From sequence record NC_047770.1: a DNA stretch of 64,000 nucleotides. The stretch is one strand, 5' to 3'. The position numbers and the translations under genes were made by a program. Position 1 is the first letter of the stretch; every line of letters begins with the position of its first letter. The notes beneath the pieces are model-generated. The model did not search any database and had not been told where the DNA came from. It saw nothing but the letters and a program-made list of their open reading frames with translations. This document shows, piece after piece, positions 20,010-58,010 of this stretch. The DNA is from Escherichia phage ESCO13.

Positions 20010-20027
20010 AAGGGGCCGAAGCCCCTT
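20010..20027 (-). terminator. intergenic hairpin AAGGGGCCGAAGCCCCTT (copy 1 of 3)
   Basis: GGGGC-UUCG-GCCCC on the minus transcript, followed by U-rich tract. Confidence 0.45.
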
Positions 20028-20034: not shown

Positions 20035-20850
20035 TTATTTGTTTAAGTGGTCTTCGACCATTTTAATGAAACCTTCATTGCTGAAGGCTGTTGCAGCTTT
20101 TTCTCGGTAAACAAAAACTCCACGATCTTCATAGAGAAGTGTTTCTTCGTAATTAACTCCAGGGTTAACTACAACCATTTTTGTACCCATACTAAGTGCA
20201 GGAAATAATTCCCAATTAAAATTGATAACTTGGTTTGAACATCCTACTACTACAACCAAATCTTGCATGGTCAAAGTATCGAACAAGTGAGCCATATCTA
20301 CATACAAAGGTGCAGCCTCACCAAAAAATACAACATTAGGCTTCACCCAGTTATAATCATCTATGTTTATACTATTGTAACCAATATCTACCAGTGTTTT
20401 GTAATCTCCAGGATGCATACGGTAAACTACTTCAGGAAGATATCCGTGTACGTGAATAACAGAATCTCTGTCTACACCTGCTCGCTCTAGTAGATCATCA
20501 ACGTTTGTTGTCAAGTTTACTATTTGGTTAGGATATTCCTTAAACCACTTTGCTATTTGAATATGTGCAGCATTAGGTTGTACATCTTTAAGCTCAACAC
20601 GTCTTTTGTTATAAAATTCGTGTGTTTTGGCATACAAATCCATACCGTTCTCATCTACACCACCGACCACTGGAAGACCTGGAGATGTTCTAACACGATA
20701 ACCTGCTTGGAAAGCTCCAATATCGCAGACCTCTTCTAAATCATATTCTTCCCATAAAGCACGACCACTATCTGTGTCTGTTCTAAATGTTCGAATCCCA
20801 CTGTCTGCACTTAAACCTGCACCGCTTACAAAAATCACTCGTCTTGGCAT
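20035..20850 (-). CDS. Sir2-like (sirtuin-family) NAD-dependent protein
   Basis: VIFVSGAGLSADSGIRTFR (GAGxS..G..FR); TTNVDDL; HG; SD gaggagg. Confidence 0.7.
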   Translation of the reverse strand: MPRRVIFVSGAGLSADSGIRTFRTDTDSGRALWEEYDLEEVCDIGAFQAGYRVRTSPGLPVVGGVDENGMDLYAKTHEFYNKRRVELKDVQPNAAHIQIAKWFKEYPNQIVNLTTNVDDLLERAGVDRDSVIHVHGYLPEVVYRMHPGDYKTLVDIGYNSINIDDYNWVKPNVVFFGEAAPLYVDMAHLFDTLTMQDLVVVVGCSNQVINFNWELFPALSMGTKMVVVNPGVNYEETLLYEDRGVFVYREKAATAFSNEGFIKMVEDHLNK

Positions 20851-21320
20851 TCTTCCTCCTCAAATGGATCATAAGAATTGTACTCGTAAGTATCATCTTC
20901 TGAAAATTCTACTTCGAAATAAATATCAAACTCTGCAAACAGACGTAGGATGTTAGACATGCTGTAATAATTATCGTAGGCAGATTCAGCTTCATAGTAA
21001 ACATAAAGCAAATGGTTAGCCTTATCATCTTCCAAATATTTCCCGTCTGCATACGCATAGTCTGCATATGCTTTACCTGCATCTTCCACAAGAGAACGAT
21101 CAAGCAGAGTAGGAAATGGTTTCTCTTTTTCTTTTAGTTTGCTCACTAACCAATGTGCAATATCATTCCATTCTGCATCCATACCACTAAAGCAACTTGC
21201 TTCTTCTCCAAAAGAAGCTTCTCCTAAATCGCCACTAATACGAATAACATTAGATGAATTATAGCCACACGTTTCACAATCAGAGTAACTATTATGCACA
21301 TTGACATTTACTTGAAACAT
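20835..21320 (-). CDS. hypothetical acidic protein
   Basis: SD aggagg upstream. Confidence 0.45.
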   Translation of the reverse strand: MFQVNVNVHNSYSDCETCGYNSSNVIRISGDLGEASFGEEASCFSGMDAEWNDIAHWLVSKLKEKEKPFPTLLDRSLVEDAGKAYADYAYADGKYLEDDKANHLLYVYYEAESAYDNYYSMSNILRLFAEFDIYFEVEFSEDDTYEYNSYDPFEEEECQDE

Positions 21321-21378
21321 ATTCCCTCCTATAAAAGAAAAGCCCCCTGAAACAGGAGGCTTTGTTCAGATGCTGGCA

Positions 21379-22032
21379 CTATACCAGACTTTGTAGGTAT
21401 TTGTCAAGGGCTTCTTGATCGCCTTGACAAACATAGCAACGGAAGTCTTGAGCCGAAGGTTGTTTATTTTCATCCCAGTCCCAATAAACATTACCCTTAT
21501 AACGTGAACCAGGAAACTCAAAAGAGGCTGTATGTGTAATGTATCCTGGGCCACCAGTGAAATCACAGAATGAGAATTGGGGGTATGCCGCCTTTACTGC
21601 CTCAATAAACCAAGCTTTACGATCTAAAGCTTCATTGATGCTATACGCATGTCTCTCCATTTCTTCCCACGTTTTCCAGACACTTCTCTCATCAGGAGAA
21701 AAGACAAGCCATTCTGGAAGGTATAGAGTGTCATAGTAATCATCATATTCGATCTCGGAGGCGCACGAAGCTGACTCCTCCAGTTTTGAGTAATCAAAAG
21801 CAGAATATACCCACCAACCATCTTCCAGTAACGCTTTGATAGGGACGAAGCCTTTATCAGCATATTGATCGAATTGTTTGACACGGTGGCTTGTGCAGTC
21901 TTCAAACTCACATTCTAAACGATATGCACCTTTTCGACGAGCCTCAAGACCGTGTGTACTGAAAATAACAACACTTCCTTCACCATCATTACGATCTACT
22001 TGATAAGCAACCACTGGTTTTGAATTTGACAT
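21379..22032 (-). CDS. hypothetical protein
   Basis: SD aaggagaaa; ATGA overlap. Confidence 0.5.
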   Translation of the reverse strand: MSNSKPVVAYQVDRNDGEGSVVIFSTHGLEARRKGAYRLECEFEDCTSHRVKQFDQYADKGFVPIKALLEDGWWVYSAFDYSKLEESASCASEIEYDDYYDTLYLPEWLVFSPDERSVWKTWEEMERHAYSINEALDRKAWFIEAVKAAYPQFSFCDFTGGPGYITHTASFEFPGSRYKGNVYWDWDENKQPSAQDFRCYVCQGDQEALDKYLQSLV

Positions 22033-22715
22033 TATTTCTCCTTATCTAGAAGATTGTTAGACAAAAACACTGCACGAGCAAAACCACGTGCGGTTAGTGA
22101 TCTAAGTTGTTTTGTTTTTGCACTAGCTCCACCTAAGCTTTTCCAACCCCAGAAGCAGCCTATATGATCTACTGGTTTCTTCACTGGTTGAACAAAACCA
22201 TTGCCGTGCCAAATACAAGTTTTCTTTGTATACCCATCACGGGTAGGCATTTTAGGATGAAAGCTTCCTTCCTCTTCAAACAAATACCCACCATACTCAT
22301 AAGGATCAAAGTAAAAATCGGGTTTACGCCATAAGGTTGAAAGTTTACCTACTGGGTTCTCAATCATCCAAGGAACATTATATTTGTTACCCAAAGCTTC
22401 CACTACACGAATATTAGCTAAAGCTTCATCCAATTCCTCTGTGCTGCGTTCGTGTTTGCTACCACTACCTGCTAACATAGTGCAAGGTGGAAATCCAAAA
22501 ATAATATCGGGTTTAGGTATCCCATGATCTTCAGGGTTGAATGTAGAATCTATCCAGGCATTCACATAGGTTATGTTTGGGTGCTCCATCCTAACCTCGT
22601 ATTTACCGTGATCCCCTTCATCAGCGTTTACACAAAAACACTTGTGACCTGCTTCGGCATAACGTAACACCATGATCCCAGATCCGTCAAACATAGACAA
22701 AACTGTTTTACTCAT
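22032..22715 (-). CDS. DNA (cytosine-5)-methyltransferase-like protein
   Basis: Start moved to ATG 22715 after SD ggagggg; SMFDGSG (FxGxG), GFPPCT (PC), MIENPVG (ENV-like). Confidence 0.5.
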   Translation of the reverse strand: MSKTVLSMFDGSGIMVLRYAEAGHKCFCVNADEGDHGKYEVRMEHPNITYVNAWIDSTFNPEDHGIPKPDIIFGFPPCTMLAGSGSKHERSTEELDEALANIRVVEALGNKYNVPWMIENPVGKLSTLWRKPDFYFDPYEYGGYLFEEEGSFHPKMPTRDGYTKKTCIWHGNGFVQPVKKPVDHIGCFWGWKSLGGASAKTKQLRSLTARGFARAVFLSNNLLDKEK

Positions 22716-23103
22716 TACCCCTCCATTCAAGACAAGCCATAACTTTACGCCAATCACTTTCTGTAAGAAAAATCTCGTTTGCTTTCTTCCACAAATCTAA
22801 ATCGTGAAGGGTTGGAATACGATATGTTAGTTCACAGAATCTATGCTCTTCTTCTGTAATATAACCAAAATGCAGAGCCACATCGTGAAACCAACACCAA
22901 CCATGCATCTCTCGAACAACATGGTCATGTTGAGACATTATTTTATGCCGTAAACCTAACCAACAAGGAACAGATACTTTAGTAGTCTTTAATCTGTGAT
23001 CAACAGTATTAGAGTATTCAATAATAGCTGTCAGTTTCAATCGTGCTTTTTCTAAATCCTCATGCGTCACTTTGAAATAACTTTCTGAAAGATATCCACA
23101 CAT
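22708..23103 (-). CDS. hypothetical protein
   Basis: Start moved to ATG 23103 after SD gaaggagg. Confidence 0.45.
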   Translation of the reverse strand: MCGYLSESYFKVTHEDLEKARLKLTAIIEYSNTVDHRLKTTKVSVPCWLGLRHKIMSQHDHVVREMHGWCWFHDVALHFGYITEEEHRFCELTYRIPTLHDLDLWKKANEIFLTESDWRKVMACLEWRGNE

Positions 23104-23104
23104 A

Positions 23105-24046
23105 TTAATAACCTCCTTCAAAAGGCTTTACTACATGTTGATTAGCTTTAAAACGTTCAACATAGTCGTTTTCGCCCATGTTTTCATATAGCTTAATAAC
23201 AACATAAAAGTTTTCCCAAGCATATTCCCTAAACCAACCACTAGTGATGGATGTGCAGACTTTAGATAAAGCCATTATAAAACTTTGCTTAGGGGTTGGA
23301 CCTCCGATCTCTCCACCGAAAGGAATTTGTGAACGTTCCAAAGCCAAAACACACGCTTCTTCATAAACACCTAACAGGCGCACATGTTTTGGTTGAGCAA
23401 AAAACTTTTCTTTGCTGGTCATAACTTCACTTCCATCTTTCATATAAGATTTATATGCCGGAGCATCCATTACCGCGATTGCTTCATGGATAGAATCATG
23501 ATCATAAACATACGGAACCTCATCACCTTTAAAAAAGTCTTTACTTTTTACGTTTAAGTTCGGATGAGAGTAAGTGTATGTTTCTTTCTCACGCAACTCA
23601 TAAATACTCTTAAGATTTTCTGGGATCTTTGCGCCCAGTGATCGCATGAAATGAATATCTTTCATAGTTTTAAAGAAGTGAGGACTATCCTTTTTAAAAC
23701 GATGACTCATTTTAAGAAGGTAGAGCACATCTAAAGGAGCAACAACATGTCCAGCGTAAGTTCGACGAACATCATCAGAATCTTCACAATAACTAATCAA
23801 AGCTTCTGTGCTATCTCCTTGAGAAGCAATATCGTATTCCAAATGTGCACCAGCTATCATTTTGACATGGCCTTTGTTTCCTTTACGTTCTACAAGTTCA
23901 ACAAACTCCTCTTGAGAGAACATTTTTGATAATTCTTCCCACTCTTGTTCTGTACACAGGTAATCTAAATCTACACAAGGGCGATACAAGTCTTTTCCCA
24001 TGCCCATAGCATGAATTTGCAATGCACGGCTACCAATTAACACCAT
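23105..24046 (-). CDS. hypothetical protein, possible nucleotidyltransferase fold
   Basis: N-terminal LIGSRAL ... CVDLDY (GS...DxD pattern); SD agaggag. Confidence 0.4.
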   Translation of the reverse strand: MVLIGSRALQIHAMGMGKDLYRPCVDLDYLCTEQEWEELSKMFSQEEFVELVERKGNKGHVKMIAGAHLEYDIASQGDSTEALISYCEDSDDVRRTYAGHVVAPLDVLYLLKMSHRFKKDSPHFFKTMKDIHFMRSLGAKIPENLKSIYELREKETYTYSHPNLNVKSKDFFKGDEVPYVYDHDSIHEAIAVMDAPAYKSYMKDGSEVMTSKEKFFAQPKHVRLLGVYEEACVLALERSQIPFGGEIGGPTPKQSFIMALSKVCTSITSGWFREYAWENFYVVIKLYENMGENDYVERFKANQHVVKPFEGGY

Positions 24047-24100
24047 AATATTTCTCCTCTATTGGTTGATAGGTTAAGTTTATCAAGCTTCCAGATTCCT

Positions 24101-24127
24101 GTCAATAAAAAACCCGCCGAAGCGGGT
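24101..24127 (-). terminator. minus-strand intrinsic terminator
   Basis: acccgc-uucg-gcgggu on minus RNA, then U6. Confidence 0.5.
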
Positions 24128-24136
24128 TATTATTTA

Positions 24137-27846: not shown

Positions 27847-28419
27847 TCAAATTATTAACGAAACCGCATGACTAAATCTTGGTTCAGATATAACCTCTGC
27901 TACAGTCACATATGTATCGTGCAGCCAAAAAGATTCTACTCTACAAACACAAATACCGTTGATAATGAAATCTACACAGGATTTATTATTTTCGCACACC
28001 TGTTGACTATAAACAACCCCTAAAGAGTCATAAAGTGATCTCACTGTTGCTACCATTTCATCTGTTTCGTCTTCCTGTGAAACAAAGAAAACGAATACAG
28101 ACAAGTTATTAGCGAAAGTATTGCTATTCTCTACTTCAACCGACTTACAAGGTAAAAAGGAGTAATATTTACCGTTAGGTATCAATTTCGCCTCAACCTG
28201 GTTAAGTATGCTTTGAGATGGTTTTGTTACATAAAAAAGATTTTCTGTTGGGTTTTCAACATTACTCCTTACTATGCAACGAGTGGGGTTCGAAGGATCA
28301 AAAACATGATCGAAATCGACACACACAGGTAAGTTAACAACTTTAAACTTTTTGCTAAGAATGCTTACTGCTGTAAAAATCAAACCAGCATTTATTTTGC
28401 CAGTGAAAGTTGAACGCAT
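27847..28419 (-). CDS. hypothetical protein
   Basis: Start moved to ATG 28419 after SD gaggag. Confidence 0.45.
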   Translation of the reverse strand: MRSTFTGKINAGLIFTAVSILSKKFKVVNLPVCVDFDHVFDPSNPTRCIVRSNVENPTENLFYVTKPSQSILNQVEAKLIPNGKYYSFLPCKSVEVENSNTFANNLSVFVFFVSQEDETDEMVATVRSLYDSLGVVYSQQVCENNKSCVDFIINGICVCRVESFWLHDTYVTVAEVISEPRFSHAVSLII

Positions 28420-29125: not shown

Positions 29126-29635
29126 TTAAACAAAATAAAATGGTTGAGAGAGGCCCAAACGATTCTTTGGGTCGTATACATACCAAGCGTATGCTGTCTT
29201 ATCTGTTCCACCTGCAACAAACGAAGGCCGTTCTGAAAGGACTATAAGGTTTGTTGGTGGATTCTTTTGATGGAACTCTCGTCGTTTCTTTGACTCCAAG
29301 AAGCCCAACCGAAGAAGATAAATACAAACATCCGCCTCTTTTAAGCTCTTTTCCAAGAACTCCATTGCTAACTTAAATGGAGGATTTGTGATTATAATGT
29401 CGGGACGATTTTCCCATTCATGACTAAAATAATCTTTACCTTCTTCAAGTTCGCAATATTCTGAACCTTCAGGAAAATGGCGATAAATCGCTTCAGCTTC
29501 ACCTCTGCAAGGTTCTGCAAAAACCCAACCTTCTTCCTTTAGATTTTTGAAATCTATAACACTAAACAAACTATTGATTGCTTTTTGCGGTGTCGGATAA
29601 TAATCGCTCGTTGGGCGATCATAATCTAATGCCAT
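29126..29635 (-). CDS. phage-type DNA N6-adenine methyltransferase-like protein
   Basis: DYYPTP; EPCRGEAEAI; IITNPPF (NPPF motif IV); SD agaggag. Confidence 0.6.
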   Translation of the reverse strand: MALDYDRPTSDYYPTPQKAINSLFSVIDFKNLKEEGWVFAEPCRGEAEAIYRHFPEGSEYCELEEGKDYFSHEWENRPDIIITNPPFKLAMEFLEKSLKEADVCIYLLRLGFLESKKRREFHQKNPPTNLIVLSERPSFVAGGTDKTAYAWYVYDPKNRLGLSQPFYFV

Positions 29636-33046: not shown

Positions 33047-33888
33047 TACCTCTCCTTATTAAGTAATACTGCTAAAGACTGTTCAATACCTTTATTTAAA
33101 TCTGATTTTGTAAGATAGTGACTGGTTACTAGTTGTGACTTCACCGGACGTGCTGCTGGAGCATTATAGGTTGAAGCTGATACCGCCGATATCTTAACAG
33201 GTTCTGGCATCTGTGTCAAGATCTTTTCCGCAAACTCCGCCCAAGAAATAAGATGGCTTCCTGCAAAATGGTAAGTCTTAACAGACCTTGACCAACCTGT
33301 TTTTAATACTTCAAAAATAGCTTCTGCTAAATCTGGAGCATATGTTGGACAAGAGAACTGATCAGCAACAATAATAAAATCACGTTGTCCATCATTATAG
33401 CGAGACAACATAGTTTTTAGAAAGTTATTTCCAAATTCGCTATATACCGAGGCTGTTCGAATAATATATGCATTTGGGTTAACTCCTCGCACCATTTTTT
33501 CACCAAGTTCTTTCGTATACCCATAATTGTTTATTGGGTTAGGTGTAGTGTCTTCAAAAATAGGATGAGAATAATTAAAAATATAGTCTGTGGAAATATG
33601 CACAAAATCAATTTTAAGTTTGCTGCACACTGCCGCAATATTTGCAGGGCCATAAGCATTAACAGCCAAAGCAGTAGCAAAATCTTGTTCGGCTTTATCT
33701 ACAGCCGTATAAGCGGCGCAATTAATAACACCATCTACATAATCTTCAACAATAGCGTTTCGCACAGCTTCAAAATTTGTAATATCTACACGTTCTTTAG
33801 GATAAATTAAAGATACATTTGCAGGGGCAACTTTACGTAAAGCTTGTCCCAGTTGTCCATTACCACCCAATACCAGATATGTTAGCAT
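33046..33888 (-). CDS. rmlD: dTDP-4-dehydrorhamnose reductase
   Basis: [17 protein letters not shown] Rossmann N-terminus; last gene of rml order. Confidence 0.65.
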   Translation of the reverse strand: MLTYLVLGGNGQLGQALRKVAPANVSLIYPKERVDITNFEAVRNAIVEDYVDGVINCAAYTAVDKAEQDFATALAVNAYGPANIAAVCSKLKIDFVHISTDYIFNYSHPIFEDTTPNPINNYGYTKELGEKMVRGVNPNAYIIRTASVYSEFGNNFLKTMLSRYNDGQRDFIIVADQFSCPTYAPDLAEAIFEVLKTGWSRSVKTYHFAGSHLISWAEFAEKILTQMPEPVKISAVSASTYNAPAARPVKSQLVTSHYLTKSDLNKGIEQSLAVLLNKER

Positions 33889-34448
33889 ACACCCTCGCTA
33901 CGTAACTGTTGAAAAGATTTAGCCATTGCATCTTTTGTTGATAGGATAGGTTTAAAACCTTCATCAAAAATCATATCGAAGCCCCAATCGATCCCTATAT
34001 CAGGATCATCCCAACGTAAACTTTCTTCACTAGAAGGGTCGTATGGAGTTGTGCATTTGTATTCAAAGATAGCATCCATACTCAAAACTATAAAACCATG
34101 TGCCAAACCAGGTGGAAGCCAAAACTGCGTATGGTGTCGTGCACGAAGAACAACACCGTCCCAAGCACCGTAAGTAGGACTATCTTTACGTAAGTCTACA
34201 GCGAAATCCAATACTTCACCACTTACACAACGAACAAGCTTACCTTGCGGATTATTTGTTTGAAAGTGCATTCCTCGCAAAACACCGAAGTTTGATTTAG
34301 ACATGTTATCTTGAACGAAAGTTTGTCTACCAATGATATCTTCGTATTTTTGTTCATTATATGTTTCTAAAAAGAAACCACGGTCGTCTTTATAAACGTC
34401 TGGTTTGATAATTACCGCACCTTCAATTTTTGTTTTTTCTACTTTCAT
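33882..34448 (-). CDS. rmlC: dTDP-4-dehydrorhamnose 3,5-epimerase
   Basis: Start moved to ATG 34448 (ATGA overlap with rmlA stop); cupin-like RmlC sequence. Confidence 0.65.
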
Positions 34449-35323
34449 TTTCCCTCCGCTAATTTGAGTAGGTATTGCCCGTACTCTGTTTTCTTCAGTG
34501 AGTTTCCATGGTAGACCAAAGTCTCTAAAGAAATCCACCCTTTTTTGAAAGCAATTTCTTCCAGGCACGCAATCTTCAATCCTTGACAGTTCTCAATAGT
34601 CTGCACGAATTGACCAGCTTCCATCAGACTGGCGTGTGTTCCTGTGTCAAGCCAAGTAAATCCTCGTCCGAGAACTTCCACTTGTAACTTCCTGTCTTCG
34701 AGGTAGCTGCGATTGATATCAGTGATCTCCAGTTCTCCACGCGCGGAAGGGGTTACTTCTAATGCACGTTGAATAACAGAGTTATCATAGAAATACAAAC
34801 CTGTGACAGCATAATCTGATTTAGGATTTTCAGGTTTCTCTTCAATAGAAATAACTTGACGATTACTCCCAAATTCAACCACACCGAATCGTTCAGGATC
34901 TTTCACCAAACACCCGAAGATACAAGCTCCGCCCCAAACATCTACCATCTCACTAGCGTCAATCAGTAGTTTACCAAAGCTTTGTCCGAAGAATAGGTTG
35001 TCACCTAAAATAAGAGCAACAGAGTCTTCTCCGATAAAATCTTTACCGATGATGAAAGCGTCCGCAAGACCTCGTGGCTTGGATTGGATTGCGTAAGTGA
35101 GTTTTATCCCAAACATAGACCCATCTCCAAGAAGATACTCAAAGTCTTCCTGATCGCCTGGTGTGGTGATGATTAAGATATCCTTAATGTCAGCCAACAT
35201 CAATACCGATAAAGGGTAGTAGATCATGGGTTTGTCATACACAGGGAGCAATTGCTTGCTCACACTGCGTGTTACCGGATGAAGGCGGGTTCCACTTCCT
35301 CCCGCCAAAATAATACCTTTCAT
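34445..35323 (-). CDS. rmlA: glucose-1-phosphate thymidylyltransferase
   Basis: [20 protein letters not shown] aaggagg. Confidence 0.8.
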
Positions 35324-35331
35324 AACCCTCC

Positions 35332-36324
35332 TTAAATCTTCTCACTCCACCATTGAGGGTTGTTTAAGTACCATTCAATCGTTGAGTAGAGATCTTGTTC
35401 AAATGTAGAGTTTGCACTCCAACCCAGTTCAGACTCTATTTTAGAAGGATTGATTTCATAACGCAAGTCATGTCCTTTACGATCTTCAACAAAAGTTATC
35501 AAGTTGGAAGAAGGGTAGGTTCCTGCTTCTGGATGTACAGCATCCATGTAGTCACAAACCATATAGATGATCTCCATATTGGTTTTGGGATTACGTGTTC
35601 CAACATTATACGTTTGACCTGGTTCTCCACCTGTTGCCACTTGAAGAATAGCTCGCGCATGATCCTCAACAAAAAGCCAGTCTCGCACCTGATCGCCTTT
35701 ACCATACACCGGAATCTCTTTATTCGTCAAGATACTTGTGATGATTTTTGGGATCAGCTTTTCTGGATGTTGATAAGGTCCAAAGTTATTGGAGCAGTTG
35801 GTTATCACAACAGGTAAACCGTAGGTACGGTACCAAGCTTTCACAAGATGGTCAGATGCTGCCTTAGACGCACTGTACGGGCTTGAAGGGGCATAAGCTG
35901 TCTCTTCGGTAAAGGGAACGCCAGAGTCTGCCATATCGCCGTACACTTCGTCTGTGGAGACATGTACGAACATCTTAAGTTTATTTTTTGGGAGGAGCCT
36001 TGCAGCTTCCAATAAATTGTATGTACCAATAATATTGGAGTCGATGAAAACTCGTGGATTCTTGATAGAATTATCCACATGACTCTCTGCCGCTAAGTGA
36101 ATGATGAAATCGGGATTGCACTCTACTACTAAACTTTTGACCTGGGTTTCGTTTGCCAAATCTGTTATGCTCAGTTTAACGTGAGTGATATCGCCTACAT
36201 TCTCAATATCTGCTGCATAGCCCATCTTATCAACGACAAAAACTTCGTTATTGGGATCTTGACAAAGAGAGCGCACCACGGCACTCCCAATAAAACCAAG
36301 ACCACCTGTTACCAGATAGCGCAT
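35332..36324 (-). CDS. rmlB: dTDP-glucose 4,6-dehydratase
   Basis: [22 protein letters not shown] (YxxxK); SD aaggagaa. Confidence 0.8.
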
Positions 36325-48047: not shown

Positions 48048-48773
48048 TTACTTATTAATAATACCTGCAATATTAGGTTTGACAAAGGTCGATGGTTTCA
48101 TGATCTTACCTTTATCATCAAAGAACACATACACTTTCTGTTTTTCATTATAAACAGCATGAACACCAGTGTATGCCCCTTCTGGACGATTGGCATTTCG
48201 TTCTTCAATTGCAGCGCATTCTTGTGCAATGGCTGAATCGATATCCGAAGTTTTCCAAGTTTTCAGCAACTGTTGTTTAGTTGGATACTTGGAATCATTA
48301 CTTTTCAATACCTCTTTAATAACTTTCTTTTCTGGATATTTTGAACGGATTAGAGTGTCACGAGACATACGCATAATACCAGCAGCCATTAGTGCCATTT
48401 GAACTGGCTCTGTAAATGTTTGTTCCAAAGCATCAAAATCAGTATACACAGTTGGAGTAAAAACATCGCCTACAGCATAGTCCAAGAAATTCATCGTATG
48501 TTCTTCACCAAAGAACATGTAGGTCAGATAACTGGATACTACAAAAATATCCGCTGCTGCATCCAAGAGTTCTACATGATCGTTTACTTTCGCGGCTGTT
48601 TCATACTCTTTAAGCTCTTCACGAACGAATCCGATTTGGGACATAAATAGCTCTTGAGTGAATTCAGGTTGTTCACCACCTCGTGCTTTAGCATTCCAAT
48701 CAATCACGTGCTTCGCTGCATTTTTGAAAAATTCAGTATCGAACTTAATATCTTTAAAAAAATTCTCGATCAT
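48048..48773 (-). CDS. MazG-like nucleotide pyrophosphohydrolase (putative)
   Basis: REELKEYE ... ELLDAAADIFVV resembles the MazG EExxE...D core; SD aaggag. Confidence 0.4.
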   Translation of the reverse strand: MIENFFKDIKFDTEFFKNAAKHVIDWNAKARGGEQPEFTQELFMSQIGFVREELKEYETAAKVNDHVELLDAAADIFVVSSYLTYMFFGEEHTMNFLDYAVGDVFTPTVYTDFDALEQTFTEPVQMALMAAGIMRMSRDTLIRSKYPEKKVIKEVLKSNDSKYPTKQQLLKTWKTSDIDSAIAQECAAIEERNANRPEGAYTGVHAVYNEKQKVYVFFDDKGKIMKPSTFVKPNIAGIINK

Positions 48774-48782
48774 TATAACTCC

Positions 48783-48965
48783 TTATTTAAAATAGCTTTC
48801 TAGAAAGTTGCTAATATTTACTACAGTCTCACCCATGTAAATTCCTGCGAAACCGAAAACAAGCATACGTGGAATATTGAAATACCATTTATCCGCTGGA
48901 AAAGATGCCAGAATTACAATAGCAATTGCTATCAGCATCATAAGAATTGTTGCTAAAATTATCAT
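48783..48965 (-). CDS. small membrane protein
   Basis: Start moved to ATG 48965 after SD ggaggc; hydrophobic. Confidence 0.4.
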   Translation of the reverse strand: MIILATILMMLIAIAIVILASFPADKWYFNIPRMLVFGFAGIYMGETVVNISNFLESYFK

Positions 48966-49156
48966 AAAAATGCCTCCAGGTATTTTGAACAATGATAAGC
49001 TAAGAAACAAGAAACTACCGCATACCCAACTCCAGACATACATGAATCAATCACAACACATACGGTTCTTTTCTTTGAATTCTTAGGAAAGTTTTCCGAA
49101 GCATTCATACAATAAAAAGAAAGTACACTGAAAACGATTAAAATGGCTAAGAACAT
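48962..49156 (-). CDS. small membrane protein
   Basis: SD aaggagg; hydrophobic N-terminus. Confidence 0.45.
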   Translation of the reverse strand: MFLAILIVFSVLSFYCMNASENFPKNSKKRTVCVVIDSCMSGVGYAVVSCFLAYHCSKYLEAFL

Positions 49157-49165
49157 TTTTCCTCC

Positions 49166-50281
49166 TTACTCTGCTGGTTCCCAAGTGCCTGGGATCATTT
49201 CTCGAATACGAACACCAACAGGTTTTGTTGGAATACCTTCATCTGAAAATTCTTCATACTCTATTTCAACGAACTGATTAATCAAGGTAGAAGCATTCTC
49301 TGCTTTACGATAATTGATAGTCTCATGAGCATCTTTACGCATTAAGAATTCGACTACTTTACCATTTTCCATCTCACCTGTCAACACTCCATCGCCATTT
49401 TTATCGCTTTTTGAATTTGTTACTTTAACTTCAAGGGTGTGGCGAGGCTTACGTTTAATAACGTCATAAGAACGTTTATCAAATTCGTAAACTCCGTGAG
49501 CATTACGATATACTACACCTTCAGCTTTCTCAAGTAAAGCTTTTTCATAGAAAGCGTCAAACTGCTCTTGGTTTTCAATATACTCTGTATGAACTACACA
49601 AATAAGCTCGTCAAGACCATAATCTTCAACTACTGCCTTAAGAGCAGCAAGAGCATCAACACGTTTTTCAAACGGTAGACCTGGAACTGGAATATCGTAT
49701 ACGTAATAATTCAGCAAAGGTGTATTTGCATTATGCTTCTTCCAAGCACTGTTAATTTGTTGCAGACTAAGGACACCTAACCCAGCAAACACTTCACCAT
49801 CAAGAGGATGACCAACAACTTCACTAATAAAGTTTGGAATACCTTTCCAATGAGGTGGCAGGTTATACACTTCCCCAGCTTTTGATAAACACTCCCCTTT
49901 CATGTTAATCATAGAACGTAACCCGTTCAGTTTGTATTGTGCATAACCAGGGAACACAACCCTTTCAGGATAATCTTTATAATCCTGGCATTTCATTGGT
50001 GTGGAAGGAACATGGTTTTCAGCTTCTTCTTTTGTTTTATAATAGCCATTCTTTAACTGTTTTGTCCATTTGGCAAAAGCTTCAAGTTCAGCTTGTTCTT
50101 CCGGTGTTGTTTCATTGGAACGACCAATGTTTTTTGCTTCTGCTGTATAAGATTTTTCTGTGATCTTTCCACCTACTCTTCCATGAGCTACAGTAACAAC
50201 TGCACCATCTGTATATACTGTCCACTGTTTAAGTTTTCCTTTTGAATCTTTACCATACAGCGTTTGATTTGTTTGTTGCAT
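49166..50281 (-). CDS. ATP-dependent DNA ligase
   Basis: KLNGLR (motif I), LDGEVF (III), EGVVYR (IV), VIKRK (V); start uncertain between 50281 and 50293. Confidence 0.7.
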   Translation of the reverse strand: MQQTNQTLYGKDSKGKLKQWTVYTDGAVVTVAHGRVGGKITEKSYTAEAKNIGRSNETTPEEQAELEAFAKWTKQLKNGYYKTKEEAENHVPSTPMKCQDYKDYPERVVFPGYAQYKLNGLRSMINMKGECLSKAGEVYNLPPHWKGIPNFISEVVGHPLDGEVFAGLGVLSLQQINSAWKKHNANTPLLNYYVYDIPVPGLPFEKRVDALAALKAVVEDYGLDELICVVHTEYIENQEQFDAFYEKALLEKAEGVVYRNAHGVYEFDKRSYDVIKRKPRHTLEVKVTNSKSDKNGDGVLTGEMENGKVVEFLMRKDAHETINYRKAENASTLINQFVEIEYEEFSDEGIPTKPVGVRIREMIPGTWEPAE

Positions 50282-50502
50282 TAGTCCTCCCATTTAAAAA
50301 CTGAAATTTTCAATCTGTTACACACTTCATCCAAATCTGCGTCGAGTAACGTTGTAGATGTTGCCAACATATAATCAATGCTTGTGAAACCTTGCCCTTT
50401 GGCATAGTCAAGCATATCTTCATACATATCTTCAAGATCACCGTCATCAAAAGTAGCTAGAAAATCCTCGTCTCCGCTACGAACATAAAATGCAGTACTC
50501 AT
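50281..50502 (-). CDS. hypothetical acidic protein
   Basis: ATGA overlap with upstream gene. Confidence 0.4.
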   Translation of the reverse strand: MSTAFYVRSGDEDFLATFDDGDLEDMYEDMLDYAKGQGFTSIDYMLATSTTLLDADLDEVCNRLKISVFKWED

Positions 50503-50690
50503 TCTTCTTCATCCCAAGATTCAAAAGCACAACAATCATCGGTTTCTATAATACCAACACGTCCGCAGGTATTGCAAGTGATTTTATCCCCGTAGAATAA
50601 ATAATTTTTATCACCCTCTGTGTTTACAGTTATGTCATTACTACCACAAGGGCAAGTCAGCCAACCAACAACAACGATATCTTTTTTCAT
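50499..50690 (-). CDS. small zinc-ribbon protein
   Basis: CPCGS ... CNTCGR; SD aaggaggg. Confidence 0.4.
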   Translation of the reverse strand: MKKDIVVVGWLTCPCGSNDITVNTEGDKNYLFYGDKITCNTCGRVGIIETDDCCAFESWDEEE

Positions 50691-50699
50691 AATCCCTCC

Positions 50700-51026
50700 T
50701 TAAGCGTTCAGTTCGTTGTTGAGTTCGTAAATCTCTTCTTGAAGAGCATCAATCTCTTCCTCCAAACGGGAGATCTCTTCTTTTAGATATACCATTTCGG
50801 ATTCTTTCTCTTCTAATTCATTTTCAAATTTTACTTTATTAGCCTCATTTTCATAATGCAGTTCAGCGTAATCATCACGCATTTGTTCAATAAGATGAAT
50901 CAGAGACAAGATATAATTGTCTCCCGTTTCATCACGCCACTCTTCACCGTGACGGAGAACGGTAATTCGTCCAGTATCTTCATCTAAAATTGTCTCATAT
51001 TTACGATCATCTGTATAAATCTGCAT
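50700..51026 (-). CDS. hypothetical coiled-coil protein
   Basis: SD aaggagaaa; heptad-rich acidic C-terminus. Confidence 0.45.
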   Translation of the reverse strand: MQIYTDDRKYETILDEDTGRITVLRHGEEWRDETGDNYILSLIHLIEQMRDDYAELHYENEANKVKFENELEEKESEMVYLKEEISRLEEEIDALQEEIYELNNELNA

Positions 51027-51035
51027 TATTTCTCC

Positions 51036-51440
51036 TTATTGAAGTTTAAGTGAACCACGAAGACGTTTCTCTTGCTGATCACGGATATATTGTGGAACCT
51101 CGTGAATTGAATCATTACCGTGCCTATTTTCAACAATTAAAGAGATAACTTGATAACCAAACTCTTCAGCAAGAGCTAGATAAGGTTTAAGTTCTTTCTC
51201 TGTGGTTGAAGTATTAGAAACAATAATCTTGTTAAGATTAGATGCCATAGCATCACGAACAATACCCTGACACCATGCGTGTGCTTTACCTACATTTTCT
51301 GGCTTCCAATCGTAAACACCACTCTCTGTGTAATGATATTGATCTGCCTCACAGATAGGCCAATAACCTTCAGAAATAATTTCTGCTACTGTAGATTTAC
51401 CAGCACCTGAAACGCCACGTAAAATGATAAGTTGTTTCAT
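51036..51440 (-). CDS. Pnk-like P-loop 5'-OH polynucleotide kinase
   Basis: LIILRGVSGAGKSTVAE (Walker A) and IIVSNTSTTEKELKPY resemble the T4 Pnk kinase domain (from memory); SD ggagga. Confidence 0.55.
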   Translation of the reverse strand: MKQLIILRGVSGAGKSTVAEIISEGYWPICEADQYHYTESGVYDWKPENVGKAHAWCQGIVRDAMASNLNKIIVSNTSTTEKELKPYLALAEEFGYQVISLIVENRHGNDSIHEVPQYIRDQQEKRLRGSLKLQ

Positions 51441-52373
51441 TTATCCTCCAAAAAAGTTTTCGATTTTTTCACGTCGCTCTTGCTGATTTAAAGCAGCCCA
51501 TTGAGTCTTCGTAAAATTATTTCGAATCCATTCTAACAAAGCGTAATATTCTTCGTCAACCATTTGTTTGGCATTTTTTGGATTATCCCAAATCAGATCC
51601 CACTTTTTATCTCCACCGCGCATAAGAAACTTCTTAGTAAGATAGTGTGGTGATTTAATTTTTAAAAGTAAGTTGAACGGATAGTTTGTTTCACGAACTA
51701 CAAACCCTTCGTGTTTACAATGTTTAGACATTTCAACAACATCTGAAAACTTAACCATTGGATGAACTTCAGGACGCTTAAATTTGGTGACAGAAGCAAT
51801 TCCATCAAGAGCACCTTCAGGTAACATAAAACTTGTCCCATCAGGATTTTGAATTCTGGCACCAATTAAGTATGCACCTGGTTCTTCTTCGACAATATGC
51901 GGATCAGAAGGATCACAGATTTCAAAAAGGAAAGTTGCTTTTGCACTCTCTGTCCATTTGATGAAATGTTCTATGTCATCACACTCTGAAACAATACGAT
52001 TCTTTGCAATACTTGCAAAATCTGATTCAAGGCTTCCTGTTGTCGATACAATAAGTTGACCTTTATATACACCTACAGAGGCCATAAAACCATTTACTTT
52101 ACGAACCACATCTACAAGTTCATCCAATGGTAGATCTGTGCCATTCTCAAAACGATTAAAAATCTTAGTGAAAGGCCAAATAACAACATTGTCATCAGCA
52201 TCAACAACGATTCCGCGACATTCTAGAAGACGAGAATCAATGCTCCATAAGTTATCCCAGAAAACTTTGTTCTTATACTTAAGAACAGATAGACCAGAAT
52301 ACTCTCCTTCTTTATATGTTTTCTTATGAACTAAACCTTTTTCAACCAAATCGTCGCAATTAAATTTATTCAC
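51441..52373 (-). CDS. RNA ligase-like nucleotidyltransferase (Rnl2-like)
   Basis: KVNG (motif I), HEGFVVRE (IV), LLLKIKSP (V); SD aaggagag. Confidence 0.6.
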   Translation of the reverse strand: MNKFNCDDLVEKGLVHKKTYKEGEYSGLSVLKYKNKVFWDNLWSIDSRLLECRGIVVDADDNVVIWPFTKIFNRFENGTDLPLDELVDVVRKVNGFMASVGVYKGQLIVSTTGSLESDFASIAKNRIVSECDDIEHFIKWTESAKATFLFEICDPSDPHIVEEEPGAYLIGARIQNPDGTSFMLPEGALDGIASVTKFKRPEVHPMVKFSDVVEMSKHCKHEGFVVRETNYPFNLLLKIKSPHYLTKKFLMRGGDKKWDLIWDNPKNAKQMVDEEYYALLEWIRNNFTKTQWAALNQQERREKIENFFGG

Positions 52374-52374
52374 A

Positions 52375-52926
52375 TTACTCTCCTTTGATTATTTTGTGAT
52401 GGTCTACAGTCACGATATCTCGTTTACTCATCATAGAAATTATCTCATCAAAATGCAAGATTTTTCCGTGTGCATCCCAACCCACATCTAACATTTTACC
52501 ATAAGCTTCATCAGGGAAAGATCCGTGGGAATGCCCGTGTAGCATGATTGATCCACGACCTTGTTTATTCCAGGAGGCCATAGGGTAATGACTTAAGACG
52601 AAGAACAGCTTCTGATATTTCACTTCGTCATAATACACCACTTCACCATACTCTGCAAGCACTTCTCGGTGTTTGCTGTAGTCATGGTTCCCAACACAGT
52701 AGGTGATATCTCCTTGGAGACGAGAAGCAATTTTACGGGTATCTTCTTCAGTTCCGAAACAGAAGTCGCCCAAATGCCACATCTTAACACCAGGAGTAGT
52801 AGCACATTTGTTCCATGCTTCGATCAAGGCTTCTGTCATGTGGTCCATATCTTCCCACGGACGATATTCAGGAGCAAACTCTCGAATACGTTTATGCATA
52901 AAATGCAAATCGCTTGTAATAAACAT
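52375..52926 (-). CDS. calcineurin-like metallophosphoesterase (end-healing phosphatase candidate)
   Basis: SDLHF (DxH), LGDF (GD), GNHD, HGHSH; SD gaggga. Confidence 0.65.
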   Translation of the reverse strand: MFITSDLHFMHKRIREFAPEYRPWEDMDHMTEALIEAWNKCATTPGVKMWHLGDFCFGTEEDTRKIASRLQGDITYCVGNHDYSKHREVLAEYGEVVYYDEVKYQKLFFVLSHYPMASWNKQGRGSIMLHGHSHGSFPDEAYGKMLDVGWDAHGKILHFDEIISMMSKRDIVTVDHHKIIKGE

Positions 52927-57536: not shown

Positions 57537-57608
57537 GGCCCTGTAGCTCAATGGGAGAGCTGTCGGCTCATAACCGATAGGTAGCTGGATCGAAACCAGC
57601 CAGGGCCA
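57537..57608 (+). tRNA. tRNA-Met or Ile2 (anticodon CAT)
   Basis: Hand-folded cloverleaf; acceptor ggccctg/cagggcc; loop cuCAUaa; CCA encoded; resembles E. coli tRNA-Ile2 (from memory). Confidence 0.7.
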
Positions 57609-57613
57609 CCAAA

Positions 57614-57685
57614 GTCTTTATGGTGTAATGGATAGCACAGGAGTCTTCTAAACTCTTAGTCAAGGTTCGATTCCTTGTAAAGACA
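57614..57685 (+). tRNA. tRNA-Arg (anticodon TCT)
   Basis: Acceptor gtcttta/taaagac; loop cuUCUaa; T-arm caagg-ttcgatt-ccttg; CCA encoded. Confidence 0.7.
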
Positions 57686-57884
57686 CCAGAACATTTTAAC
57701 ATGAATTAGCTCAAGTGATTTGAACCCACTACTGATCATGGTGGCAGAGAATGAGGCAAGTATGTCAGACATTATAAACAAAGGCCACGGTTATATTAGA
57801 AGACATAAATGCTCGAAGAGCACCGTTCGTGGAGAACGGGGGTTGGTGGAGTCACCATTCATGGTAAAATGTTTTAAAAAACTA

Positions 57885-57914
57885 TTGACAACAAACATTA
57901 TTTTATGTTAGATT
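57885..57914 (+). promoter_or_regulatory. sigma70-like promoter inside the tRNA cluster
   Basis: TTGACA-18-TAGATT. Confidence 0.4.
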
Positions 57915-57922
57915 ATAAGTAT

Positions 57923-58010
57923 GGAAGGGCAAATCGATGTGGCGACGAAAACGGTCTTGAAAACCGCCGAGCTTGAAAGAGCCTTGGGAGTTCGACTCTC
58001 CCTCCTTCCG
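57923..58010 (+). tRNA. tRNA-Ser (anticodon TGA)
   Basis: Long variable arm; loop cuUGAaa; T-arm gggag-ttcgact-ctccc; CCA encoded. Confidence 0.6.

What the first reader, a model, noticed from the sequence alone, without database searches (positions are those of the whole stretch)
20035..24046. Sir2-like protein clustered with a cytosine-5 MTase-like and a possible nucleotidyltransferase protein
The Sir2-like ORF has a strong GAGxS...G..FR NAD-binding signature. Downstream in the same operon are an acidic protein, a protein with FxGxG/PPC/ENP motifs resembling C5 methyltransferases, and a protein with a GS...DLD pattern suggestive of a nucleotidyltransferase. Sir2 domains are common in bacterial anti-phage effectors, so a phage-encoded copy may act in NAD metabolism, ADP-ribosylation or counter-defence.
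Basis: partly seen in the sequence, partly recalled or inferred. Interest (0 to 1): 0.6.

Follow-up and report, generated by a model that had tools for sequence, protein, structure and literature searches.

The report
Phage sirtuin beside methyltransferase and nucleotidyltransferase
This stretch of a well-known E. coli phage carries a real but uncharacterised zinc-less sirtuin next to a compact cytosine-methyltransferase-like gene and a nucleotidyltransferase gene. These are already-annotated accessory genes that occur apart in other phages, not a new three-part system.

Summary
The window is a Phapecoctavirus (phAPEC8-like E. coli myovirus), 99.8% identical over this region to published, annotated genomes. 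All three domain guesses hold.

- **Sirtuin (271 aa):** closest to E. coli CobB. The NAD loop, the Asn/Asp pair and the catalytic His are intact, as is the class III Y-x-x-R. All four zinc cysteines are missing.
- **Methyltransferase-like (227 aa):** predicted C5-cytosine methyltransferase fold, with motifs FDGSG, FPPC and ENP and a minimal target-recognition region.
- **Nucleotidyltransferase (313 aa):** predicted Pol-beta fold, closest to MenT/AbiEii toxins and ANT(2''), with invariant GS...DxD...E.

- The genes are on the minus strand, so the sirtuin is the last gene, not the first.
- A strong terminator hairpin and a promoter-like site separate it, with the overlapping acidic-protein gene, from the upstream four-gene unit.

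The arrangement is confined to Stephanstirmvirinae-like phages. Close relatives keep a 95-96% identical sirtuin but lack the other two genes. One 153-kb viral contig carries all three more than 30 kb apart. Each family mostly occurs alone.

The sirtuin belongs to a phage clade (T5, rV5, KVP40) already discussed in print but never tested biochemically. I found no evidence for a defence-type or counter-defence role.

The parts
24111..24128 (-). Intrinsic-terminator-like hairpin that ends the upstream transcription unit
   Evidence: 7-bp stem, 5 GC pairs, T-run. The equivalent hairpin sits before the NTase gene in KP13-26.
24077..24105 (-). Sigma-70-like promoter site (TTGACA-17-TAAACT, TG before the second hexamer) in front of the NTase gene
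   Evidence: The same hexamers are at the same position in KP13-26. The total number of promoter-like sites in the region is no more than chance, so this is a consensus match only.
23105..24046 (-). 313-aa Pol-beta-superfamily nucleotidyltransferase (Pfam DUF7277 + DUF7275; PHROG 2141), with a MenT/AbiEii/ANT-like fold
22708..23103 (-). 131-aa protein of unknown function (PHROG 16551). The ORF can also be read from TTG at 23121, giving 137 aa.
   Evidence: Absent from KP13-26.
22032..22715 (-). 227-aa compact C5-cytosine-methyltransferase-like protein (PHROG 757), with catalytic Cys78 in FPPC and Glu119 in ENP
21379..22032 (-). 217-aa acidic protein of unknown function (PHROG 8514). It is present upstream of Sir2 in most Stephanstirmvirinae-like loci examined, but is reduced to a fragment in JohannJBalmer.
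21378..21407 (-). Strong sigma-70-like site (TTGACA-18-TATAGT with TG, 11 of 12) at the 3' end of the 217-aa gene
   Evidence: Identical hexamers and spacing are found in KP13-26.
21339..21363 (-). Strong intrinsic-terminator-like hairpin (11 pairs, 6 GC, T-run) between the 217-aa gene and the acidic-protein gene
   Evidence: Annotated as a terminator in NC_048196. A hairpin is conserved at the equivalent place in KP13-26.
20835..21320 (-). 161-aa very acidic protein (pI 4.05; PHROG 9509). Its stop overlaps the Sir2 start by 16 nt.
   Evidence: Adjacency and overlap with Sir2 are also seen in Justusliebigvirus, where the protein is 37% identical.
20035..20850 (-). 271-aa Sir2/CobB-like sirtuin of the phage-specific zinc-less clade (PHROG 2162)
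20010..20027 (-). Terminator-like hairpin directly after Sir2
   Evidence: Annotated as a terminator in NC_048196.

Best explanation
This is an ordinary accessory-gene block in the minus-strand gene block of a phAPEC8-like phage. The sigma-70-like promoter sites suggest, but do not show, early transcription by host RNA polymerase. I read it as two adjacent transcription units of separately mobile genes, not one multi-enzyme system.

**Unit 1 (promoter-like site near 24.1 kb, terminator near 21.35 kb).** It encodes four tightly packed genes:
- A MenT/AbiEii-like nucleotidyltransferase.
- A 131-aa unknown protein.
- A minimal C5-cytosine-methyltransferase-like enzyme.
- A 217-aa unknown protein.

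**Unit 2.** It encodes a very acidic 161-aa protein whose gene overlaps a CobB-like sirtuin.

**Sirtuin: what is shown.**
- The NAD-binding loop is intact.
- The Asn116/Asp118 pair and the catalytic His135 are conserved.
- The Tyr80-x-x-Arg83 signature of class III sirtuins is present.
- The small-domain segment is about as long as CobB's but has no zinc cysteines.

**Sirtuin: what is inferred.**
- It binds and cleaves NAD+ and transfers ADP-ribose onto an anionic or acylated acceptor.
- Most likely it removes acetyl- or succinyl-type groups from lysines of host or phage proteins. I put this at about 0.4.
- Next most likely it acts on a 2'-phosphate in broken RNA, as proposed for this clade by Iyer et al. 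2022. I put this at about 0.25.
- The acidic partner may be a regulator or substrate mimic (speculative).

**Methyltransferase (inferred).** It most likely methylates C5 of cytosine in phage DNA. Its homologues in other phages sit beside primase/helicase and DNA polymerase genes.

**Nucleotidyltransferase (inferred).** It most likely adds a nucleotide to an RNA 3' end or to a small molecule. Its target is unknown.
For: **Identity of the phage.** The region is 99.8% identical to vB_EcoM_Schickermooser and other phAPEC8-like genomes, where Sir2 and a DNA methyltransferase are already annotated.

**Sir2.**
- Pfam, PHROG and NCBIfam CobB-type models all match, and E. coli CobB 1S5P is the best solved relative.
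- Invariant or nearly invariant in 23 homologues: G10-A11-G12, S17-G18, F22-R23, Y80, R83/R84, N116, D118, H135-G136.
- None of eight phage homologues has the zinc cysteines.
- No PADLOC model matches.

**Transcription units.** Terminator and promoter-like sites are conserved between the window and KP13-26.

**Separability of the three genes.**
- The phage distributions differ.
- In samples of viral contigs, Sir2 lies within 10 kb in 8 of 80 NTase loci. It does so in 9 of 80 MTase loci. An NTase lies within 10 kb in 10 of 75 Sir2 loci.
- Justusliebigvirus phages have a Sir2 95-96% identical to this one. They have no NTase, and at most a doubtful MTase remnant.
- Contig IMGVR_UViG_3300041405_000148 carries Sir2, NTase and MTase at about 55, 85 and 122 kb.
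- In Vequintavirus JeffSchatz the MTase homologue sits next to primase/helicase and DNA polymerase, with no Sir2 within 20 kb.

Against: - The order NTase-MTase-p217-Sir2 is kept across lineages that share only 50-75% protein identity. In one lineage (L017, L024) the whole cassette is inverted relative to both flanks while keeping its internal order. That would fit a cohesive module.
- An MTase homologue directly abuts Sir2 in an apparently unrelated 90-kb contig with a family-A DNA polymerase (L142).
- A short NTase homologue lies 2.4-2.9 kb upstream of Sir2 in KVP40-like Vibrio phages.
- No activity of any of the proteins has been measured.
- The methyltransferase has YTKKT where canonical enzymes have Q-x-R-x-R, and almost no target-recognition domain, so DNA is not a proven substrate.
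- Phages of this group are reported to be exceptionally sensitive to restriction-modification systems (PMC8594841).
Confidence: 0.6

Rival explanations
1. The sirtuin is an RNA-repair enzyme. Like the ADP-ribosyltransferase-fold enzyme Tpt1/KptA, it would use NAD+ to remove a 2'-phosphate left at a healed RNA break. It would work with the phage's RNA ligase, kinase and phosphoesterase to undo tRNA cleavage by host anticodon nucleases. This was proposed for this viral sirtuin clade by Iyer et al. 2022 (PMC9503650).
For: - In Vequintavirinae-type genomes Sir2 is embedded in the order phosphoesterase - Rnl1 - kinase - Sir2 - DNA ligase - MazG. This holds for FV3, Mydovirus VLCpiM5b and 12-13 of 75 sampled Sir2 loci.
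- In Serratia phage BF, Sir2 is flanked by a gene annotated 'RNA ligase', which Iyer et al. describe as a 2H phosphoesterase, and by a Nudix gene.
- The conserved Tyr80/Arg83 pair could hold an anionic group (inference).
Against: - In this phage the same RNA-repair block exists without Sir2, about 30 kb away at 48051-52926.
- T5-like loci, roughly half of the sample, show no such neighbours.
- To my knowledge no sirtuin has been shown to use a phosphate as acceptor.
- No biochemical study turned up in five literature searches.
Confidence: 0.25
2. NTase, MTase, the 217-aa protein and Sir2 form one functional cassette acting on one substrate. Two examples: a stepwise nucleic-acid modification (C5 alkylation, nucleotidylation, ADP-ribosylation), or a tRNA protection and repair set.
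For: - Gene order is conserved at 50-75% protein identity in several Stephanstirmvirinae-like lineages.
- The cassette is inverted as a unit in L017 and L024.
- MTase and Sir2 are adjacent in L142.
- An NTase homologue lies near Sir2 in KVP40-like phages.
- The NTase's best structural matches are tRNA-modifying MenT toxins.
- In jumbo-phage and related large-phage contigs, the NTase sits between Rnl1-PNKP and a metallophosphoesterase plus DNA ligase.
Against: - Natural partial deletions exist. L093 has Sir2, p217 and the acidic protein but no NTase or clear MTase. JohannJBalmer has only a p217 fragment, the acidic protein and Sir2.
- The three genes are dispersed in Vequintavirinae-like genomes.
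- Each family mostly occurs alone.
- A terminator and a separate promoter-like site lie between p217 and the acidic-Sir2 pair.
- Conserved order within related phages can be plain inheritance.
Confidence: 0.1
3. The sirtuin is a counter-defence or NAD-manipulating factor, for example an NADase or a decoy aimed at Thoeris, DSR or SIR2-HerA type systems.
For: Only circumstantial. NAD+ is a known battleground between phages and hosts. In some other phages Sir2 lies within a few kb of NAMPT and NMNAT-like genes.
Against: - No match to any PADLOC defence SIR2 model.
- The sequence is of the CobB/class III deacylase type, with catalytic His and Y-x-x-R.
- It has no sensor or effector fusion.
- No NAMPT homologue was found in this window.
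- No anti-defence report for this family was found.
Confidence: 0.05

Closest known systems
E. coli CobB and other class III sirtuins (PDB 1S5P; human SIRT5)
   Same: Best sequence match among solved structures (E=5e-19). NCBIfam CobB-type models match, though all fall below their curated cut-offs. The NAD loop GAGxSxxSGIxxFR is shared, as are the (T/Q)N(V/I)D motif, the HG catalytic histidine and the xPxVVxFGE motif. The FYNxRR segment carrying the Tyr/Arg pair aligns residue for residue. From my own knowledge, that pair recognises succinyl or malonyl groups in SIRT5 and CobB.
   Different: All four zinc-binding cysteines are replaced, although the segment length is about the same. Gln of TQNID is Thr. 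A 20-25-residue insertion at about residues 47-72 is present only in Stephanstirmvirinae-type homologues. No activity has been measured.
Phage sirtuin clade (T5 T5p100, rV5/FV3 gp077, KVP40/nt-1 Sir2/CobB; PHROG 2162)
   Same: This protein is a member. It is 52% identical to T5, 47% to FV3 and 36% to nt-1, and 982 phage records hold a homologue. The lack of zinc ligands was already noted for KVP40-like phages (PMC5107563). The clade was analysed by Iyer et al. 2022 (PMC9503650).
   Different: The genomic context differs. Here Sir2 is not in the RNA-ligase/kinase neighbourhood. It sits at the end of the minus-strand gene block, behind an acidic protein and the NTase-MTase-p217 unit. That arrangement is not among the three neighbourhood types listed by Iyer et al..
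Defence-associated SIR2 proteins (ThsA, DSR1/2, SIR2-HerA, SPARSA)
   Same: Same superfamily fold. Both lack the zinc module (for the defence proteins this is from my own knowledge).
   Different: No PADLOC model matches. It is a single-domain protein with no sensor domain. It retains the deacylase-type catalytic His and the class III Y-x-x-R. It is phage-encoded.
C5-cytosine DNA methyltransferases (DNMT3B, M.HhaI, M.HaeIII) and the phage carboxymethyltransferase CmoX
   Different: Only 227 aa. About 35 residues stand where the target-recognition domain should be. YTKKT replaces Q-x-R-x-R (sequence-pattern inference). Pfam PF00145 does not match. No CmoA-like Cx-SAM synthase is nearby, so nothing suggests carboxymethylation.
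MenT/AbiEii nucleotidyltransferase toxins and aminoglycoside/lincosamide nucleotidyltransferases (ANT(2''), LnuA)
   Different: No sequence-level match to their Pfam families. A larger, highly conserved C-terminal helical domain (DUF7275) rich in invariant His, Asp and Glu is present. The protein is phage-encoded, and none of the six cluster proteins matched an antitoxin family. It is widespread in T4-like and jumbo phages.
Tpt1/KptA RNA 2'-phosphotransferase
   Same: Both are NAD+-consuming. By Iyer et al.'s hypothesis they would fill the same slot next to RNA ligase and kinase genes.
   Different: Unrelated fold, and the equivalence is purely a prediction. In this window the RNA-repair genes are about 30 kb away.

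Membership tests
Sirtuin (Sir2) family, PF02146 | Profile match above the curated threshold | tested here: met
   Pfam 79.8 bits against a cut-off of 24, E=3e-22. PHROG 2162 E=6e-104.
Sirtuin (Sir2) family, PF02146 | NAD-binding loop GAGxSxxSGIxxFR | tested here: met
   Residues 10-23 read GAGLSADSGIRTFR. G10 A11 G12 S17 G18 F22 R23 are invariant in 23 homologues.
Sirtuin (Sir2) family, PF02146 | Catalytic His (HG motif) and the Asn/Asp of the TQNID motif | tested here: met
   H135-G136 and N116 are invariant, and D118 is at least 90% conserved. They align with CobB's HMHG and TQNIDN.
Sirtuin (Sir2) family, PF02146 | Four-cysteine zinc module in the small domain | tested here: not met
   There is no Cys between HG and KPNVVFFGE. 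The CobB cysteines align to other residues or to alignment gaps. The cysteines are absent from all eight phage homologues, as reported for KVP40-like phages (PMC5107563).
Class III (CobB/SIRT5-type) sirtuins | Tyr-x-x-Arg pair that binds acidic acyl groups | tested here: met
   F79-Y80-N81-K82-R83-R84 aligns with CobB FYNARR. Y80 is invariant and R83 at least 90% conserved. The functional meaning of the pair is from my own knowledge.
Sirtuin (Sir2) family, PF02146 | NAD+-dependent deacylase or ADP-ribosyltransferase activity | not testable with these tools
   Needs enzyme assays. No published assay for this clade was found.
Defence-associated SIR2 effectors (Thoeris ThsA, DSR, SIR2-HerA, SPARSA) | Match to defence-system SIR2 models, and fusion to or pairing with a sensor such as SLOG, HerA or pAgo | tested here: not met
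   No PADLOC hit at E<=0.01. The protein is a single 271-aa domain. None of the five neighbouring proteins matched a SLOG, HerA or Argonaute family in Pfam or PADLOC.
Viral RNA-repair sirtuin neighbourhoods (Iyer et al. 2022) | Sirtuin gene adjacent to RNA ligase, kinase, cREC, MazG, 2H, Nudix or HAD phosphatase genes | tested here: not met
   In the window Rnl1, kinase, phosphoesterase, DNA ligase and MazG lie at 48051-52926, about 30 kb from Sir2. The criterion is met in Vequintavirinae relatives.
C5-cytosine methyltransferases (PF00145) | Profile match | tested here: not met
   No Pfam hit at E<=0.1. Only weak PADLOC MTase_II/DruM hits at 1e-4 to 4e-3, and M.HaeIII at E=0.88 with a family profile. 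PHROG 757 'DNA methyltransferase' E=7e-85.
C5-cytosine methyltransferases (PF00145) | Motif I FxGxG, motif IV PC with catalytic Cys, motif VI ENV, in that order | tested here: met
   F9-D10-G11-S12-G13, F75-P76-x-C78-T79 and E119-N120-P121 are invariant in 26 homologues. They align to the M.HaeIII motifs.
C5-cytosine methyltransferases (PF00145) | Motif VIII Q-x-R-x-R and a target-recognition domain between motifs VIII and IX | tested here: inconclusive
   The corresponding segment reads Y162-T-K164-K-T166, with K164 and T166 invariant. Only about 35 residues follow before the LRSLTxRG segment. The correspondence rests on sequence pattern and secondary structure, not on a residue-level structural alignment.
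C5-cytosine methyltransferases (PF00145) | Fold | tested here: met
Pol-beta-superfamily nucleotidyltransferases (MenT/AbiEii, ANT group) | hG[GS] ... D-x-D ... third acidic residue | tested here: met
   G5, S6, D26, D28 and E70 are invariant in 27 homologues of 51-81% identity. The motif is also present in the short nt-1 homologue.
Pol-beta-superfamily nucleotidyltransferases (MenT/AbiEii, ANT group) | Fold | tested here: met
MenT/AbiEii toxin-antitoxin systems | Profile match to DUF1814/AbiEii and an adjacent AbiEi/MenA-type antitoxin | tested here: not met
   Pfam gives only DUF7277 and DUF7275. No PADLOC hit. The adjacent genes match no antitoxin family.

The most novel reading that the evidence does not exclude
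The NTase-MTase-p217-Sir2 cassette is a functional unit. In this reading an NAD+-using sirtuin, a minimal C5-methyltransferase-like enzyme and a MenT-like nucleotidyltransferase act in sequence on one nucleic acid. Candidates are a new DNA or RNA hypermodification, or a tRNA protection-and-repair pathway that counters host anticodon or acceptor-stem toxins. The very acidic protein overlapping Sir2 would be its regulator.
Probability: 0.1. Interest if true: 0.7.

Novelty: already known. Interest (0 to 1): 0.3.

Why it matters
Practically, this finding can be filed as explained at the annotation level. The genes are real, correctly guessed, and already present and named in more than a hundred published phage genomes.

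What remains open is the biochemistry of the phage-specific, zinc-less, CobB-like sirtuin clade. A homologue is present in 982 of 50,697 phage records, including T5, rV5-like and KVP40-like phages. Two published predictions compete: lysine deacetylation of host enzymes, and NAD-dependent RNA repair. I found no assay for either. Settling this would say what many large phages use NAD+ for.

The work here adds three useful details:
- The DUF7277/DUF7275 family has a MenT/AbiEii-like nucleotidyltransferase fold with an invariant catalytic triad.
- The 227-aa 'Dcm-like' phage proteins are minimal C5-MTase folds with a divergent motif VIII.
- Natural gene-loss and gene-scattering variants show that the sirtuin does not depend on its neighbours.

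Tried and rejected
- **Defence-type SIR2.** Rejected: no PADLOC match.
- **CmoX-like carboxymethylation or hypermodification cluster.** Considered because CmoX is among the top fold matches. Rejected because no CmoA- or CmoY-like gene is in the block.
- **CCA-adding role for the NTase in maturing phage tRNAs.** Not needed, since all ten phage tRNA genes in the window already encode CCA. A repair role is not excluded.
- **Sequence-profile searches of PDB with the NTase and MTase families.** Nothing significant. Only the fold comparison was informative.
- **The AlphaFold-database library (afdb50).** Not available.
- **Rfam and repeat scans of the region.** Nothing found.
- **The 131-aa, 217-aa and 161-aa proteins.** No Pfam, NCBIfam or PADLOC hit, apart from a sub-threshold DUF7000 match (E=0.062) for the 131/137-aa protein.
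- **Literature.** Five searches found no experimental study of a phage sirtuin of this clade, of DUF7275/DUF7277, or of the Stephanstirmvirinae cassette.
- **NAMPT elsewhere in this phage's genome.** Not determined. None is in the window, and a database-wide search was not specific enough to decide.

Full report
**What the window is.** The 4-kb region is 99.8% identical to Escherichia phage vB_EcoM_Schickermooser and to dozens of other phAPEC8-like genomes (genus Phapecoctavirus, subfamily Stephanstirmvirinae). In these records the 271-aa gene is already annotated as a Sir2 or NAD-dependent deacetylase. The 227-aa gene is annotated as a DNA methyltransferase or Dcm. GC skew and ORF structure show that everything from about 20 kb to about 55 kb is coded on the minus strand.

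**Anatomy.** Read in the direction of transcription on the minus strand, the region runs as follows.
- A terminator hairpin at 24128-24111.
- A sigma-70-like site, TTGACA-17-TAAACT, at 24105-24077.
- Four genes separated by at most one base or overlapping: a 313-aa protein (24046-23105), a 131-aa protein (23103-22708), a 227-aa protein (22715-22032) and a 217-aa protein (22032-21379).
- A strong sigma-70-like site, TTGACA-18-TATAGT with an upstream TG, at 21407-21378.
- Immediately after it, an 11-bp-stem hairpin with a T-run at 21363-21339.
- A 161-aa very acidic protein (21320-20835; pI 4.05). Its stop overlaps by 16 nt the start of the 271-aa Sir2 gene (20850-20035).
- A terminator hairpin at 20027-20010.

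The promoter-like site plus hairpin between the 217-aa gene and the acidic gene recur with identical hexamers in Klebsiella phage KP13-26. The proteins of that phage are only 55-75% identical. The other genes are upstream of Sir2. The block also looks like two units, although read-through is possible.

**The sirtuin.**
- Pfam SIR2 matches at 3e-22, PHROG 2162 at 6e-104, and several NCBIfam CobB-type models at up to 3e-30.
- The best solved relative is E. coli CobB (1S5P, 5e-19).
- In an alignment of 23 homologues the NAD loop (G10-A11-G12, S17-G18, F22-R23), N116 and H135-G136 are invariant, and D118 is at least 90% conserved.
- The class III Tyr-x-x-Arg pair is present. Y80 is invariant and R83 at least 90% conserved. 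The segment FYNKRR aligns with CobB FYNARR.
- The four zinc cysteines of CobB are replaced, although the segment between HG and KPNVVFFGE is about the same length. None of eight phage homologues (T5, FV3, Mydovirus, nt-1, BF and others) has them.
- The same zinc loss was reported for KVP40-like Vibrio phages in 2016 (PMC5107563).
- No PADLOC defence model matches.

I conclude that this is a probably active, single-domain, CobB-derived sirtuin of a phage-specific clade. A homologue is present in 982 of 50,697 phage records.

**The methyltransferase-like protein.**
- Pfam does not recognise it. PHROG 757 matches at 7e-85, and weak PADLOC cytosine-methylase hits appear.
- In 26 homologues FDGSG, FPxCT and ENP are invariant. 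They align with motifs I, IV and VI of M.HaeIII.
- It is unusually small. About 35 residues stand where the target-recognition domain should be.
- By sequence pattern, YTKKT replaces the canonical Q-x-R-x-R.
- Homologues are most common in 45-50-kb siphoviruses.
- In Vequintavirus JeffSchatz the homologue sits directly before the primase/helicase and DNA polymerase genes. That argues for DNA as the substrate.
- The BASEL study found Vequintavirinae and their relatives exceptionally sensitive to restriction-modification systems (PMC8594841). Any protection it gives must therefore be narrow.

**The nucleotidyltransferase.**
- Pfam assigns only DUF7277 and DUF7275.
- G5-S6, D26-x-D28 and E70 are invariant in 27 homologues. 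Many His, Asp and Glu residues of the C-terminal domain are also invariant.
The family is widespread in T4-like, Acinetobacter, Aeromonas, Pseudomonas and jumbo phages and in actinophages.
- In jumbo-phage and related large-phage contigs it sits between Rnl1-PNKP and a metallophosphoesterase plus DNA ligase.

**Is it one system? Evidence for cohesion.**
- The order NTase-MTase-p217-Sir2 is kept in Phapecoctavirus, in Klebsiella relatives and in a more distant metagenomic lineage (NTase 53%, Sir2 51-54% identical).
- In that distant lineage the whole cassette is inverted relative to both flanks while keeping its internal order.
- An MTase homologue directly abuts Sir2 in an apparently unrelated 90-kb contig that carries a family-A DNA polymerase.
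- A short NTase homologue lies 2.4-2.9 kb upstream of Sir2 in KVP40-like phages.

**Is it one system? Evidence against.**
- The three families have different phage distributions.
- In the NTase sample, Sir2 lies within 10 kb in 8 of 80 loci. In the MTase sample it does so in 9 of 80.
- In the Sir2 sample, an NTase lies within 10 kb in 10 of 75 loci and an MTase in 10 of 75. Most of these cases belong to the same Stephanstirmvirinae-like lineages.
- Justusliebigvirus, the sister genus, has a Sir2 95-96% identical to this one. One genome lacks the NTase and any clear MTase. JohannJBalmer retains only a p217 fragment, the acidic protein and Sir2.
- One 153-kb viral contig carries Sir2, NTase and MTase at about 55, 85 and 122 kb.
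- In Vequintavirinae, Sir2 sits in the order phosphoesterase - Rnl1 - kinase - Sir2 - DNA ligase - MazG. This phage has the same block without Sir2, at 48051-52926.

I therefore read the cluster as lineage-specific synteny in a variable accessory region. The only consistently tight partner of Sir2 in the E. coli members examined is the overlapping acidic protein.

**Mechanism.** Conserved catalytic residues support NAD+ binding and cleavage by the sirtuin. Everything beyond that is inference. I rank the sirtuin's possible roles as follows.
- Lysine deacylation, about 0.4. This rests on the CobB ancestry and on the retained class III Tyr/Arg pair and substrate-loop motifs. It was also the 2016 proposal.
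- NAD-dependent removal of RNA 2'-phosphate, about 0.25. This is the proposal of Iyer et al. 2022. It is supported by neighbourhoods in other phages but not in this one.
- A cassette function with the neighbours, about 0.1.
- A counter-defence or NADase role, about 0.05.

**Novelty and score.** The genes, their annotation, the zinc-less nature of the phage sirtuin and two functional predictions are already in the literature and databases. Five literature searches found no biochemical study. New here are the fold-level assignments of the DUF7277/DUF7275 protein and of the minimal methyltransferase. Also new is the comparative evidence that the genes are separable. I rate the finding as already known, with interest 0.3. 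The open question of what phage sirtuins do is real, but this locus does not make it unusually tractable.

Noticed in passing
window 48051-52926 (minus strand): A complete RNA/DNA end-healing and sealing block: calcineurin-like phosphoesterase, T4 Rnl1-like RNA ligase, a 134-aa P-loop kinase, a small gene, ATP-dependent DNA ligase and a MazG-like pyrophosphohydrolase. In Vequintavirinae the same block contains the Sir2 gene between the kinase and the DNA ligase. Here Sir2 has been relocated about 30 kb away.
   Followed up: partly
L010, L011, L012 and L025-L041 (NTase at about 10001 of each IMG/VR locus): In jumbo-phage and related large-phage contigs, the DUF7277/DUF7275 nucleotidyltransferase sits in a conserved position. 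Rnl1 and PNKP lie 4.4-7 kb upstream, and a metallophosphoesterase and DNA ligase lie 1-6 kb downstream. This hints at an RNA-end function for this NTase family.
   Followed up: partly
L093, L094, L169 compared with window 20035-21320: Sir2 is 95-96% identical between this Phapecoctavirus and Justusliebigvirus phages, while the adjacent acidic protein (37%) and p217 (67%) are much more diverged. Some Phapecoctavirus genomes have Sir2 only 66-71% identical. This suggests recent recombinational exchange of the Sir2 gene between genera.
   Followed up: no
L017, L024 (IMG/VR contigs 3300031418_000008 and 3300031087_000234): The NTase-MTase-p217-Sir2 cassette is inverted relative to both flanking gene blocks compared with the window. 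In both arrangements Sir2 remains the last gene before the point where transcription converges.
   Followed up: partly
window 33049-36324 (minus strand): A full dTDP-rhamnose-type sugar pathway (rmlA, rmlB, rmlC and an rmlD-like gene) is encoded by the phage. The BASEL paper refers to it as a putative dTDP glycosylation machinery whose target is unknown.
   Followed up: no
window 57537-59549 (plus strand): Ten tRNA genes (Met, Arg, Ser, Asn, Thr, Gly, Gln, Pro, Ile, Met). All have the 3' CCA encoded in the DNA.
   Followed up: yes
window 29129-29635 and 27850-28419 (minus strand): A second small (169-aa) gene is annotated as a DNA methyltransferase; its apparent homologue in JohannJBalmer is annotated N6-adenine type. 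A 190-aa gene is annotated as histidyl- or aminoacyl-tRNA-synthetase-like. In JohannJBalmer the acidic protein next to Sir2 carries the same 'putative aminoacyl-tRNA synthetase' label. Neither was examined.
   Followed up: no
phage database hits MG0656xx: Several records named 'Campylobacter phage' with host C. jejuni are 96-100% identical in these proteins to E. coli Phapecoctavirus, Justusliebigvirus and Vequintavirus phages. They are probably mislabelled or contaminant assemblies.
   Followed up: no
L009 (Serratia phage BF) 3812-9671, and L007 (Klebsiella phage VLCpiM5b) 2504-5126: In other phages the Sir2 gene lies within a few kb of NAD+ salvage genes (NAMPT, an NMNAT-like cytidylyltransferase, PRPP synthetase) and a Nudix hydrolase. 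No NAMPT homologue is in this window. The rest of this phage's genome was not checked.
   Followed up: partly
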